From a virus, in the IMG/VR virus record IMGVR_UViG_3300045988_136394, positions 49,940 to 113,939 of that record: a stretch of 64,000 nt of DNA. One strand, given 5' to 3'. The translations under genes and the position numbers were made by a program. The first letter of the stretch is position 1, and each line of letters starts with the position of its first letter. The notes beneath the pieces were generated by a model that saw only the letters and a list, made by a program, of their open reading frames with translations, was not told the DNA's origin and did no database searches. Shown here piece by piece: positions 36,302 to 38,417 of this stretch.

Positions 36302-36538
36302 GTAATACCCTTTTTTTCGATTTCAATATAATAAAAACTCACAACTTCAACTGCCACTCAAAATATGTTTAAATATACTCAAACACATCGAGAAATTGAA
36401 GTCCTCACGAATACTTCTTACTGCTTCATTGTGTATGTTTTGACGATTGCAGGCAATACGCTACTCACAAGTTCTTGTACACTCCACAGTCGTTAATTCC
36501 CGAAATAGCCTTCGGTACATACTTACATTTGCTTTTAA
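36302..36538 (-). ncRNA. Candidate omega-RNA / right-end region of the IS607-family element, downstream of tnpB
   Basis: 237 nt non-coding stretch immediately 3' of tnpB with several hairpins, for example CCGAAGGCUAUUUCGG. Confidence 0.3.
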
Positions 36539-37702
36539 TCATGCAATCTTGTAAGTTTTAGCATCTTTTAAATTAAGTGCCGCATTGAAATCCCTGTCTG
36601 CAACATAGCCACATTCACATCTGTAAATTCTATCTGAAAGCTTTAAATTTTTCCTGATAGAACCACAATGGTGACATGTCTTTGAAGATGGATAAAATCT
36701 ATCTGCTACCCTTAATTCAATGCCTTTTTCATCACACTTGGCTTTAAGCCTTTTTCTAAATTCATAAAACTTCTGAGATGCAACAGCTTTTGAAAGACAC
36801 CTGTTTTTCATCATTCCTTTTACATTTAAATCTTCAATCGTTATGTAAGACGGTTTGGTTTTCACTATCTCAGCGATTGTCTTGTTAATGTAATCAGTAC
36901 GGATATTATCCATTTTATGATGAAGTTTTTGTACCTTAAGCTTTTGTTTCTGTATATTTGCTCTTTGAGTGGACTCTCCTTTCTTTAAATTTTCATACTT
37001 TCGGGAAAGACTTCTCTGTTCCCGGATCAGTTGTTTTTCAAGTTTCTTTAATCCTGCCGATTTGTTGATGTTCCTGTATGTCTTTCCATTTGAAATAATA
37101 GCAAAGTCTTTTAGCCCAAGGTCTATACCGATTCCCTCGTTTAAGTTATTGTTAATATTGACATCGGGAATCTCTACAAGAACAGAAACATAAAATCTGC
37201 CAGCCTTAACAGACACTGTACCACTTCTGATCATATATCCATCCTTTGTTGTTGGGATATATCCTTTTTCTTTGATACGGACCCAGCCCAGAGTTGGGAT
37301 CTTAAGTCTGTGCCTTTCGCATTGACAATCCTTTGGGTTATTTCTGACGAAATACATTTTCACATCAGATTTACCTTTCTTTTTAAATTTAGGAAAATCA
37401 CTCTGATGTTTAAAAAATCTTGTAAAAGCAGCACATCCATCTTCGATAGACTTTTTTACGGCTTTTGAATACACTTCCCTGATCCATGTTTTGTCAGGAT
37501 TATCTGGAATGTATTCGTTATTAAGCCATAGACTAAAGCTCTTACCAGTCATAAACTTTTCACCATTATCATGCAGGGCTTTGTTGTGACCAAGGTAGAA
37601 GTTATAAACATATCGGCAAGTGCCTATCGTCTTACGGATTCGGGCTTTCTGTTCTTCAGTTGGGTTGATTTCCGTCTTGAAGCTCTTTAGCAATCTCTTC
37701 AT
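36539..37702 (-). CDS. tnpB: TnpB (OrfB) RNA-guided nuclease-type transposase accessory protein
   Basis: RuvC-like IGIDLGLKDFA, ITIEDLNVKG and ADRDFNAALN motifs plus a zinc finger CHHCG...CECG. Confidence 0.85.
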   Translation of the reverse strand: MKRLLKSFKTEINPTEEQKARIRKTIGTCRYVYNFYLGHNKALHDNGEKFMTGKSFSLWLNNEYIPDNPDKTWIREVYSKAVKKSIEDGCAAFTRFFKHQSDFPKFKKKGKSDVKMYFVRNNPKDCQCERHRLKIPTLGWVRIKEKGYIPTTKDGYMIRSGTVSVKAGRFYVSVLVEIPDVNINNNLNEGIGIDLGLKDFAIISNGKTYRNINKSAGLKKLEKQLIREQRSLSRKYENLKKGESTQRANIQKQKLKVQKLHHKMDNIRTDYINKTIAEIVKTKPSYITIEDLNVKGMMKNRCLSKAVASQKFYEFRKRLKAKCDEKGIELRVADRFYPSSKTCHHCGSIRKNLKLSDRIYRCECGYVADRDFNAALNLKDAKTYKIA

Positions 37703-38303
37703 CCTTTTCTATTTGTTTTTTATACTTACGAAGTCCGTACAATCTACAGGAAAAAACATGAAGTATAGATACAATATCCTGTACAAGTTCTTCTTGCGGT
37801 GATAGTTCTTCATTGTTCACTATCACTATAGTTGTATTGAACTTCATACAGAATTTTTCAAACCAGTCATATCCAAATCTGATAAATCTGTCTTTATGTG
37901 CAACTATGATGGTTTTAATTTTTTGTTCCATTACTTCATCTAACATCTGATTCCACTTTTTGCGGTTATAGTTTAAACCACTGTCATAATCTTCAATACA
38001 TTGGTCTACAATCATTCCTCTGGCATTACAGAATTGACGTAAAAACGATACTTGATTCTGTAAATCATCCTTTTGATTTCTTGTAGAAACTCTTGCATAA
38101 ATAACAACTTGTCGAGTATCATTCTCTGTATCTATGCCTTTGAATTGAAGATATTGGTTGTAAGTATAATAACGCCTGTCAGTTGGAGTTCGATTCGCTT
38201 TTAGCGTTCCTTCCCTGTCCCAACGCTGTAATGTTTTCACAGAGACACCTAATAATTCAGCAAAATCTTTTGGTTTATAATTAGTGATATTCGATGTGTT
38301 CAT
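37656..38303 (-). CDS. tnpA: IS607-family TnpA serine recombinase with an N-terminal MerR-like HTH
   Basis: VVIYARVSTRNQKDDLQNQ catalytic serine motif and ELLGVSVKTLQRWDREG HTH. Overlaps tnpB by 47 nt. Start taken at MNTSN with a GGGGGG Shine-Dalgarno. Confidence 0.8.
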   Translation of the reverse strand: MNTSNITNYKPKDFAELLGVSVKTLQRWDREGTLKANRTPTDRRYYTYNQYLQFKGIDTENDTRQVVIYARVSTRNQKDDLQNQVSFLRQFCNARGMIVDQCIEDYDSGLNYNRKKWNQMLDEVMEQKIKTIIVAHKDRFIRFGYDWFEKFCMKFNTTIVIVNNEELSPQEELVQDIVSILHVFSCRLYGLRKYKKQIEKDEEIAKELQDGNQPN

Positions 38304-38417
38304 AGCAATACCCCCCATGAGCACATTTTAACACATTTAATCACTAATATCAATGTTATCGATTGCTTAAAAATTCTCCTTTGATATGTCACATAATTTT
38401 GTACGCTTTCAAGTTTT

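What the first reader, a model, noticed from the sequence alone, without database searches (positions are those of the whole stretch)
36302..38400. IS607-family element with TnpB and a candidate omega-RNA region inserted in the phage tail region
A serine recombinase TnpA (MerR-like HTH plus the YARVSTRNQ motif) overlaps TnpB by 47 nt. TnpB carries RuvC motifs I-III and a zinc finger. A 237 nt structured non-coding stretch lies 3' of tnpB, where omega-RNA scaffolds are encoded. The element is AT-rich relative to the flanking phage genes, so it was probably acquired from an AT-rich genome. A TnpB RNA-guided nuclease riding on a phage is interesting in its own right.
Basis: partly seen in the sequence, partly recalled or inferred. 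Interest (0 to 1): 0.55.

Follow-up and report, generated by a model that had tools for sequence, protein, structure and literature searches.

The report
IS607 insertion sequence with RNA-guided TnpB

Summary
The finding is confirmed and sharpened. More than 13 sister phage contigs, 96-99% identical in the flanks, lack the insert. They define a clean 2,025-bp insertion at window 36351..38375 (minus strand). There is no target duplication, and a 2-nt AG is shared by the target and the right end.

The element encodes:
- an IS607-type serine transposase (MerR HTH plus catalytic domain; NCBIfam transpos_IS607);
- a 387-aa TnpB, 82% identical to ISFba1 TnpB (PDB 8IAZ), with all catalytic and TAM-contact residues conserved;
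- a 188-nt guide-RNA scaffold (36351..36538) containing a strong Rfam RAGATH-18 match (69.8 bits).

The left flank ends in AGGAG, the TAM shown experimentally for this family. The 20 nt after the right end (36331..36350) would be the guide. Ren et al. 2024 (Cell Res) described this system, so it is a new member of a known kind.

The AT-richness argument is weak. TnpB on phages is common.

Possibly new points: relatives insert between Shine-Dalgarno (ribosome-binding) sequences and start codons. This phage lineage is polymorphic for such insertions at three sites.

The parts
36351..38375 (-). Complete IS607-family insertion sequence, 2,025 bp. The ends are ambiguous by 2 nt because AG is shared by the target and the right end.
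   Evidence: In more than 13 related IMG/VR phage contigs the left and right flanks are contiguous (for example L035 5982-6303 | 6304-6655) at 96-99% identity. In 119 BLAST hits homology to relatives stops exactly at the right end; 113 loci were usable for end mapping.
38376..38380 (-). TAM 5'-AGGAG-3' in the phage DNA, immediately 5' of the left end.
   Evidence: Read from the sequence. AGGAG is the TAM determined experimentally for 18/22 strains of this TnpB family (PMC11061315). It precedes the left end in 38/40 distinct insertion sites of relatives.
38304..38375 (-). Non-coding left end. It contains a promoter-like site (TTGATA-17-TAAAAT with a TG motif, 38353..38325) upstream of tnpA.
   Evidence: The number of promoter-like sites in the region is not above chance, so this is a positional hint only.
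37656..38324 (-). tnpA, an IS607-type serine transposase (ORF of 222 aa). The likely start is ATG 38318, as called in public assemblies (220 aa), or ATG 38303, which follows a GGGGGG ribosome-binding-like run. The catalytic serine lies in YARVSTRNQ.
   Evidence: Pfam Resolvase plus MerR. NCBIfam NF033518 transpos_IS607 at 228 bits, cut-off 110. PDB relatives include MJ0014, ISC1904, ISC1926 and IS1535 TnpA catalytic domains.
36539..37702 (-). tnpB, an RNA-guided RuvC nuclease of 387 aa. It overlaps tnpA by 47 nt.
   Evidence: It is 81.8% identical over 384 aa to PDB 8IAZ (ISFba1 TnpB), E 8.6e-216. D194, E290, D371, N61, N62, K80, K83, Y117, N121, N122 and S160 are all conserved. NCBIfam guided_TnpB scores 294 bits.
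36351..36538 (-). reRNA/omega-RNA scaffold of 188 nt: 5' flank 36491..36538, RAGATH-18 core 36418..36490, 3' flank 36351..36417. It does not overlap the tnpB ORF.
   Evidence: Rfam RF03064 at 69.8 bits. The ISFba1 scaffold is 187 nt with the same three-part layout. Covariation in 53 relatives supports the structure.
36331..36350 (-). Predicted 20-nt guide/target, TTGAAGTTGTGAGTTTTTAT. This is phage DNA just outside the right end.
   Evidence: Conservation across 53 relatives ends abruptly at ...TTTTGAGTGGCAG and the next 20 nt are unrelated. The sequence has a single match in the window. AGGAG followed by a perfect 20-nt match occurs in 26 of the 32 sister-phage locus records carrying this site (several records are the same contig fetched twice); two more have 19/20.
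41475..41499 (-). Unoccupied TAM plus target (AGGAG + AGCTGATATGGATACTTTGA) at the ribosome-binding site of baseplate gene 40774..41487. A related IS (82% identical) occupies this site in a sister phage.
   Evidence: L025/L122 (IMGVR_UViG_3300045988_148649) compared with the window.
31412..31436 (-). Unoccupied TAM plus target (AGGAG + CGAAAACATGACTTACATTT) at the ribosome-binding site of gene 30810..31424. A related IS occupies this site in another sister phage.
   Evidence: L012/L120 (IMGVR_UViG_3300029232_000028) compared with the window and 13 other empty locus records.

Best explanation
Window 36351..38375 (minus strand) is an intact and probably active IS607-family insertion sequence of the ISFba1 type.

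Inferred by homology, the cycle runs as follows:
- TnpA, a small serine recombinase with an N-terminal MerR-like HTH, excises the element as a double-stranded circle. It re-inserts it immediately 3' of an AGGAG motif by a 2-bp (AG) crossover, leaving no duplication.
- The tnpA-tnpB transcript continues into a 188-nt RAGATH-18-containing scaffold and about 20 nt of flanking DNA.
- TnpB binds this reRNA.
- When the element is absent (after excision, or on a homologous DNA lacking it), AGGAG and the 20-nt target TTGAAGTTGTGAGTTTTTAT become adjacent.
- TnpB cuts there. Repair from an occupied copy then restores or spreads the element (guide-RNA-directed homing).
- The occupied allele is safe because the target is preceded by GGCAG (the right end) instead of AGGAG.

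Shown here: the anatomy, the precise insertion, the conserved residues, the RNA structure, and the TAM/target arrangement.

Inferred from the characterised relatives: cleavage activity, the circular intermediate, and homing.
For: - Precise insertion: empty sites in sister phages show no target duplication and a shared AG.
- TnpA: passes the IS607 transposase equivalog, with the HTH placed before the catalytic domain.
- TnpB: 82% identical to ISFba1 TnpB (PDB 8IAZ), with all RuvC and TAM-contact residues kept.
- RNA: RAGATH-18 match at 69.8 bits. The scaffold is 188 nt against 187 nt in ISFba1, outside the ORF as in that family. Covariation score is 0.391 against 0.145 in shuffles and at most 0.086 in slid controls.
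- TAM: AGGAG sits directly 5' of the left end here and in 38/40 sites of relatives.
- Guide: conservation ends exactly at the right end and variable 20-mers follow.
- Recent mobility: a 99% identical copy lies at a different site in Coprococcus comes. The exact TnpB protein occurs on at least 10 contigs, one in a bacterial chromosomal context.
- Literature: cleavage activity, TAM and structure for this family are in PMC11061315. IS607 excision, circle formation and TnpB-mediated retention are in 10.1101/2023.11.20.567912.
Against: - No expression or activity data exist for this copy.
- The only sigma-70-like site upstream of tnpA is not statistically distinguishable from chance.
- The shared dinucleotide is AG, not the GG described as strictly required for other IS607 elements. 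The transposition chemistry of this subgroup is therefore extrapolated.
- No circle-junction or tandem-junction sequence was found in IMG/VR.
- NCBIfam's narrow 'IS607_TnpB' exception model scores below its cut-off (174 against 350 bits). The protein is named only by the general TnpB model.
Confidence: 0.9

Rival explanations
1. The element is mainly a phage weapon or gene drive. During co-infection or superinfection, its TnpB-reRNA cuts sister phages that carry the empty AGGAG-plus-target site. This either excludes them or copies the IS and its neighbouring markers into them (non-restorative homing, as with free-standing homing endonucleases of T-even phages). This extends the best explanation rather than excluding it.
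For: Occupied and empty alleles co-exist in 96-99% identical phages. The occupied allele is in the window and three ENA assemblies. The empty allele is in more than 13 IMG/VR contigs, 26 of 32 locus records having a perfect TAM plus 20-nt match. Two sister phages carry related ISs at other sites for which the window is the uncut, targetable allele. The concept appears in the 2026 OMEGA review (PMC13565253).
Against: There is no evidence of co-infection, no evidence of co-conversion tracts around the IS, and no expression data. The same IS family is just as common in bacterial chromosomes (482 confirmed hits). Phage carriage may therefore simply be hitch-hiking.
Confidence: 0.25
2. The copy is a stranded or decaying IS that can no longer move. 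Its genes are relics and the non-coding RNA has no current role.
For: Ren et al. report that 30% of TnpAs in such loci are pseudogenes. One metagenome contig (L198) keeps only the last 35 nt of the right end at this same junction.
Against: Both ORFs are full length with intact active sites. Both ends are complete relative to more than 100 relatives. Copies 99-100% identical sit at other loci.
Confidence: 0.06
3. The TnpB is a domesticated, nuclease-dead RNA-guided regulator (TldR-like) that the phage uses to control a host or phage gene.
For: Phage-encoded TldR proteins derived from TnpB exist (papers listed).
Against: The RuvC triad D194/E290/D371 is intact. The gene lies inside a bounded mobile element beside an intact transposase. 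The guide matches only its own flank in the window.
Confidence: 0.02
4. [quoted passage not shown]
For: IS607 IStrons occur in Clostridia. Insertion next to start codons would make splicing useful.
Against: No group I intron or any other Rfam family was found in 35000..39500 at E<=1, or in the whole window at gathering score, other than RAGATH-18. The 188-nt 3' region is fully accounted for by the reRNA scaffold.
Confidence: 0.01

Closest known systems
ISFba1 (Firmicutes bacterium AM43-11BH) IS607 TnpB with RAGATH-18-derived reRNA; Ren et al. 2024, Cell Res, PDB 8IAZ
   Same: Both TnpB proteins are 387 aa and 82% identical, with identical catalytic and TAM-contact residues. RAGATH-18 forms the core of a scaffold of about 187 nt that lies wholly downstream of the ORF. 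The TAM is AGGAG, the guide is 20 nt, and the host range is human-gut Firmicutes.
   Different: This is a different copy and sequence variant. It lies in a phage rather than a bacterial chromosome. Nothing has been tested biochemically for this copy.
ISCbt4-a in Clostridium botulinum phage c-st (AP008983)
   Same: An IS607-type OrfA plus OrfB element carried by a phage. It shares 67% nucleotide identity over 83% of the query.
   Different: It is much more divergent and sits in a different host and phage. Its ends and RNA were not analysed here.
CboIStron / IS607 of Clostridium botulinum (Zedaveinyte et al., 10.1101/2023.11.20.567912)
   Same: A serine TnpA excises the element precisely through a circle. 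TnpB plus omega-RNA cuts the donor joint where TAM and target are re-joined.
   Different: That element contains a group I intron, uses the TAM TGGG and a strict GG core dinucleotide, and its omega-RNA overlaps the intron. This one has no intron, uses AGGAG, and has an AG shared dinucleotide.
ISDra2 TnpB (IS200/IS605 family; PDB 8BF8/8EXA/8H1J)
   Same: It has the same RuvC/zinc-finger nuclease fold, and its guide is taken from the right-end flank (E 1.5e-38).
   Different: It is partnered with a Y1 HUH transposase and moves through single-stranded DNA. Its TAM is TTGAT, and its omega-RNA overlaps the 3' end of tnpB.

Membership tests
IS607 family insertion sequence | Transposase is a small serine recombinase with the DNA-binding (MerR-like HTH) domain N-terminal to the catalytic domain | tested here: met
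   Pfam places MerR at residues 16-64 and Resolvase at 73-200. NCBIfam NF033518 'IS607 family transposase' equivalog scores 228 bits against a cut-off of 110. PDB relatives are IS607-type TnpA catalytic domains.
IS607 family insertion sequence | No terminal inverted repeats and no target-site duplication; precise insertion | tested here: met
   The flanks are exactly contiguous in empty alleles. Only short, chance-level 8-mer similarities link the two ends.
IS607 family insertion sequence | Core crossover dinucleotide shared by target and element end, canonically GG | tested here: inconclusive
   A 2-nt identity is present at three independent occupied/empty pairs, but it is AG (flank ...GGAG|, right end ...GGCAG|), with the GG lying 2 nt upstream. 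The literature describes GG.
IS607 family insertion sequence | Transposition through an excised circular double-stranded DNA intermediate | not testable with these tools
   A circle or tandem junction pattern was searched in IMG/VR with no hits. Answering this needs PCR or read-level data.
RAGATH-18 reRNA-guided IS607 TnpB (ISFba1 type) | TnpB of about 390 aa with a RuvC D-E-D triad and a zinc finger | tested here: met
   The protein is 387 aa with D194/E290/D371 and C343xxC346...C361xC363, and is 81.8% identical to 8IAZ.
RAGATH-18 reRNA-guided IS607 TnpB (ISFba1 type) | RAGATH-18 motif immediately downstream of tnpB, not overlapping the ORF, inside a conserved scaffold of about 187 nt that ends at the right end | tested here: met
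   RF03064 matches at 36418..36490 with 69.8 bits against a gathering score of 44.9. The flanks are 48 nt on the 5' side and 67 nt on the 3' side, 188 nt in all. Covariation supports the structure.
RAGATH-18 reRNA-guided IS607 TnpB (ISFba1 type) | TAM 5'-AGGAG (or GAGGG) adjacent to the target, that is, flanking the left end in the integrated state | tested here: met
   AGGAG lies at 38376..38380 and precedes the left end in 38/40 sites of relatives. The TAM-contact residues are conserved.
RAGATH-18 reRNA-guided IS607 TnpB (ISFba1 type) | RNA-guided double-stranded DNA cleavage | not testable with these tools
   This is inferred from 82% identity to the tested enzyme.
IStron (IS607 or IS605 fused to a group I intron) | Group I intron structure spanning the element ends | tested here: not met
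   There is no intron hit in Rfam at E<=1 over 35000..39500, or at gathering score over the whole window.
TldR / nuclease-dead TnpB derivatives | Loss of RuvC catalytic residues and loss of the transposon context | tested here: not met
   The catalytic triad is intact, and the transposase and both ends are intact.

The most novel reading that the evidence does not exclude
The AGGAG TAM and target of this IS607 subgroup is the Shine-Dalgarno sequence. As a result these elements land, in sense orientation, between the ribosome-binding site and the start codon of genes. Among closely related gut myophages, different family members occupy three such sites. Each phage therefore carries a TnpB-reRNA able to cut its IS-free sisters, a natural RNA-guided homing or exclusion network between phages. 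At the same time the insertions weaken translation initiation of the gene downstream.
Probability: 0.25. Interest if true: 0.6.

Novelty: new member of a known kind. Interest (0 to 1): 0.3.

Why it matters
As an identification it matters little. The family, its guide RNA, its TAM and its structure were published in 2024, and thousands of copies exist in gut bacteria and phages.

It is useful as a clean natural case. Occupied and empty alleles of the same phage locus are both available in public data, with exact ends. That makes TnpB-driven homing between phage genomes directly testable.

The observation that the family's target is the ribosome-binding site would explain two things: why these elements are always co-oriented with, and transcribed from, host operons, and how they can perturb gene expression. 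I did not find this observation in the papers searched.

Tried and rejected
- ISfinder was not available. I used the NCBIfam IS607 equivalog, PDB and annotated phage records instead.
- Megablast of 20 kb around the site against GenBank phages gave only fragments and no empty site. IMG/VR searches with the two flanking proteins did give empty sites.
- I first suspected the window was the Coprococcus comes contig NZ_JAAIMM010000019. Only the IS matches, not the flanks.
- A right-end junction search found nothing in IMG/VR. It found one metagenome contig whose first 43 nt do not match the IS. That could be a truncated remnant, another family member or an assembly join; I could not decide.
- A circle or tandem junction search in IMG/VR gave nothing.
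- Group I intron (IStron) reading: no Rfam hit.
- Terminal repeats and TnpA-binding motifs: only 8-mers with 0-1 mismatch in AT-rich DNA, which I do not claim as real.
- Promoter and terminator scans were at chance level, and no terminator was found inside the element.
- The AT-richness argument was tested and found uninformative.
- I asked whether the right end supplies a replacement ribosome-binding site. Predicted pairing to the anti-Shine-Dalgarno sequence is weak: -3.6 kcal/mol, against a median of -8.1 for the displaced sites.
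Full report
**Observation.**
- TnpA has a MerR-type HTH (residues 16-64) followed by a resolvase catalytic domain (73-200). The YARVSTRNQ serine motif is at residues 76-84.
- TnpB has the HTH_OrfB_IS605, OrfB_IS605 and Cas12f1-like_TNB domains.
- The 237-nt gap to the next gene (36302..36538) exists as described.

**Ends.** I searched IMG/VR with the two flanking phage proteins, a dUTPase-domain protein (35357..36301) and an 86-aa protein (38418..38678). This returned about 20 sister-phage contigs.
- In more than 13 of them the two flanks are 96-99% identical to the window and directly contiguous, for example L035 5982-6303 | 6304-6655.
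- Read in the element's orientation, the empty site is ...ATCAAAGGAG|TTGAAGTTGTGAG....
- The occupied site reads ...ATCAAAGGAG|AATTTTTAAGC......TTTTGAGTGGCAG|TTGAAGTTGTGAG....
- The insert is therefore 36351..38375, 2,025 bp, with no target duplication.
- A 2-nt AG is shared by the target and the right end. That is what a 2-bp serine-recombinase crossover leaves.
- Independently, in 119 BLAST hits homology to related copies stops exactly at 36351, and it reaches the first 1-7 nt of the left end in many.

**Proteins.**
- TnpA passes NCBIfam's 'IS607 family transposase' equivalog (228 bits, cut-off 110). Its closest solved relatives are IS607-type TnpA catalytic domains.
- TnpB (387 aa) matches PDB 8IAZ with E 8.6e-216 and 81.8% identity without gaps. 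8IAZ is the cryo-EM structure of ISFba1 TnpB from Ren et al. 2024 (PMC11061315).
- The residues that paper identifies as catalytic (D194, E290, D371) are all conserved at the same positions. So are the residues it identifies as contacting the TAM or the first target phosphate (N61, N62, K80, K83, Y117, N121, N122, S160).

**RNA.**
- Rfam finds RAGATH-18 (RF03064) at 36418..36490 on the minus strand, at 69.8 bits against a gathering score of 44.9 (E 4.6e-13). It is the only Rfam family in the whole window.
- Ren et al. showed that RAGATH-18 is the core of the guide RNA (reRNA) of this TnpB clade. It lies in a 187-nt scaffold wholly downstream of the ORF, with conserved flanks of about 50 nt (5') and 60 nt (3'), followed by a 20-nt guide.
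- Here the distance from the tnpB stop codon to the right end is 188 nt: 48 + 73 + 67.
- I aligned 53 non-redundant relatives. The sequence is conserved up to ...TTTTGAGTGGCAG, and the following 20 nt are unrelated.
- The RNAalifold structure pairs in 98.8% of cells. It has 16 pairs with compensatory changes and a covariation score of 0.391. Shuffles give 0.145 (0/500 as high) and slid controls at most 0.086.
- The 'candidate omega-RNA' is therefore real. It occupies 188 of the 237 nt; the other 49 nt are phage DNA, and the first 20 of those (36331..36350) would be the guide.

**Mechanism.**
- The five bases 5' of the left end (38376..38380, minus strand) read AGGAG. This is the TAM measured for 18 of 22 strains in this family, and single substitutions at any position abolish cleavage.
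- In the empty allele AGGAG abuts TTGAAGTTGTGAGTTTTTAT. This is exactly the TnpB substrate.
- In the occupied allele the same 20-mer is preceded by GGCAG, which differs from the TAM at two positions. The resident copy should therefore be immune.
- This is the donor-joint cleavage and homing logic. It has been shown for IS605, and for another IS607 element by Zedaveinyte et al..
- For this copy, the cleavage, the circular intermediate and the homing are all inferred, not shown.

**Distribution and activity.**
- The family is very common: 482 confirmed relatives in a scan of one genome per species, mostly Lachnospiraceae, and 280 in IMG/VR.
- A 99% identical copy sits at an unrelated site in Coprococcus comes MSK.16.63.
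- The exact TnpB protein occurs on at least 10 contigs. Three are gut metagenome contigs with the same occupied phage allele (L199, L200, L202). One lies beside QueH and MscL in a bacterial chromosome.
- Intact genes, intact ends and near-identical copies at different loci all argue for recent mobility. They also point to a Lachnospiraceae host.

**Context and composition.**
- The window holds two different myovirus-type structural modules in tandem on the minus strand.
- The IS lies in the second module, inside a low-GC accessory stretch of about 10 kb. That stretch sits between baseplate hub/spike genes (40774..42391) and baseplate wedge and tail-fibre genes (25489..32164). 'Tail region' is therefore correct.
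- The IS is 34.9% GC. Its immediate flanks are 36.8% and 40.1%, and the window as a whole is 37.7%. Only the core tail genes (44.7%) stand out. Composition does not mark the IS as foreign to its neighbourhood.

**Beyond the finding: insertion at ribosome-binding sites.**
- AGGAG is the Shine-Dalgarno core. In 38 of 40 distinct insertion sites of relatives, a GGAG/AGGAG motif ends immediately 5' of the left end (in 30 of them the mapping placed the end one base downstream, and that base belongs to the IS).
- In 29 of 40, the reconstructed empty site has the start codon of an ORF of at least 50 codons 3-13 nt downstream.
- For random AGGAG pentamers in the same sequences the figure is 32-38%, giving binomial p between 2e-7 and 1e-5.
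- The elements therefore sit between the ribosome-binding site and the start codon, co-oriented with the gene.
- The last 14 nt of the right end pair only weakly with the anti-Shine-Dalgarno sequence: -3.6 kcal/mol, against a median of -8.1 for the displaced sites. Translation of the downstream gene should suffer. This is an inference.
- The window copy is one of the exceptions. The dUTPase start codon is 50 nt downstream, and only a 17-codon ORF follows the AGGAG.

**Beyond the finding: three sites in one phage lineage.**
- Two sister phages carry related ISs (82% identical) at the ribosome-binding sites of the baseplate gene 40774..41487 and of gene 30810..31424.
- The window has the intact TAM-plus-target at both positions, 41475..41499 and 31412..31436.
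- I found no mention of ribosome-binding-site targeting in Ren et al., in the 2026 OMEGA review or in the IStron preprint. The library searched is incomplete.
- The shared dinucleotide AG also differs from the GG reported as strict for other IS607 elements.

**Verdict.** The element is a new copy of a family whose mechanism, RNA, TAM and structure are already published. Interest is modest. It comes from the clean occupied/empty allele pairs in natural phage populations and from the ribosome-binding-site targeting pattern.

Noticed in passing
38376..38380 and relatives' loci (for example L025:1057, L012:5383, L039:1829): Members of this IS family sit immediately 3' of AGGAG. In 29/40 distinct sites they lie between that Shine-Dalgarno-like motif and the start codon 3-13 nt downstream, co-oriented with the gene (background for random AGGAG sites is 32-38%). 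The right end offers only weak anti-Shine-Dalgarno pairing (-3.6 against -8.1 kcal/mol).
   Followed up: partly
window 41475..41499 and 31412..31436 (minus strand): The window carries the empty TAM-plus-target alleles of two sites that are occupied by related ISs (82% identical) in sister phages IMGVR_UViG_3300045988_148649 (before baseplate gene 40774..41487) and IMGVR_UViG_3300029232_000028 (before gene 30810..31424). Three different sites have therefore been hit in one phage lineage.
   Followed up: partly
junctions at 38375/38376 and 36350/36351; L025, L012: The dinucleotide shared by the target and the right end is AG in three independent occupied/empty pairs, not the GG described as strict for other IS607 elements. 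The first base of the IS is polymorphic: A in the window, G in L039, L199, L200 and L202.
   Followed up: partly
window 259..17143 and 25489..56997: There are two different complete myovirus-like structural modules (terminase, portal, capsid, sheath, tape measure, baseplate) in tandem, both on the minus strand. This suggests two adjacent prophages or a composite.
   Followed up: no
window about 30750..40700: A low-GC stretch (31-42%) of small ORFs without database matches, plus a dUTPase-domain fusion protein (314 aa, N-terminal 150 aa unassigned), interrupts the baseplate gene cluster. The N-terminal part of the dUTPase protein differs between sister phages: matches start at residue 115-121 in L017-L020 and L022.
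   Followed up: no
L198 (OGXH01006933.1) 1..93: This metagenome contig has the same right-end/phage junction, but only the last 35 nt of the right end match. The 43 nt before that are unrelated. It could be a truncated remnant, another family member or an assembly join.
   Followed up: partly
window 35097..35140: A GC-rich hairpin followed by a T-run (CACCCTGCT...AGCAGGGTG TTTTTTT) lies in the gap downstream of the dUTPase gene. It drew several sub-threshold Rfam leader and sRNA hits, and is most likely a bidirectional intrinsic terminator.
   Followed up: no
36302..36350 (minus strand): A 17-codon ORF (GTG at 36342) starts 8 nt after the AGGAG in the empty allele and overlaps the dUTPase start codon. 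A poly-A length difference (7 or 8 A) in L200 fuses it to a longer dUTPase call (333 aa).
   Followed up: no
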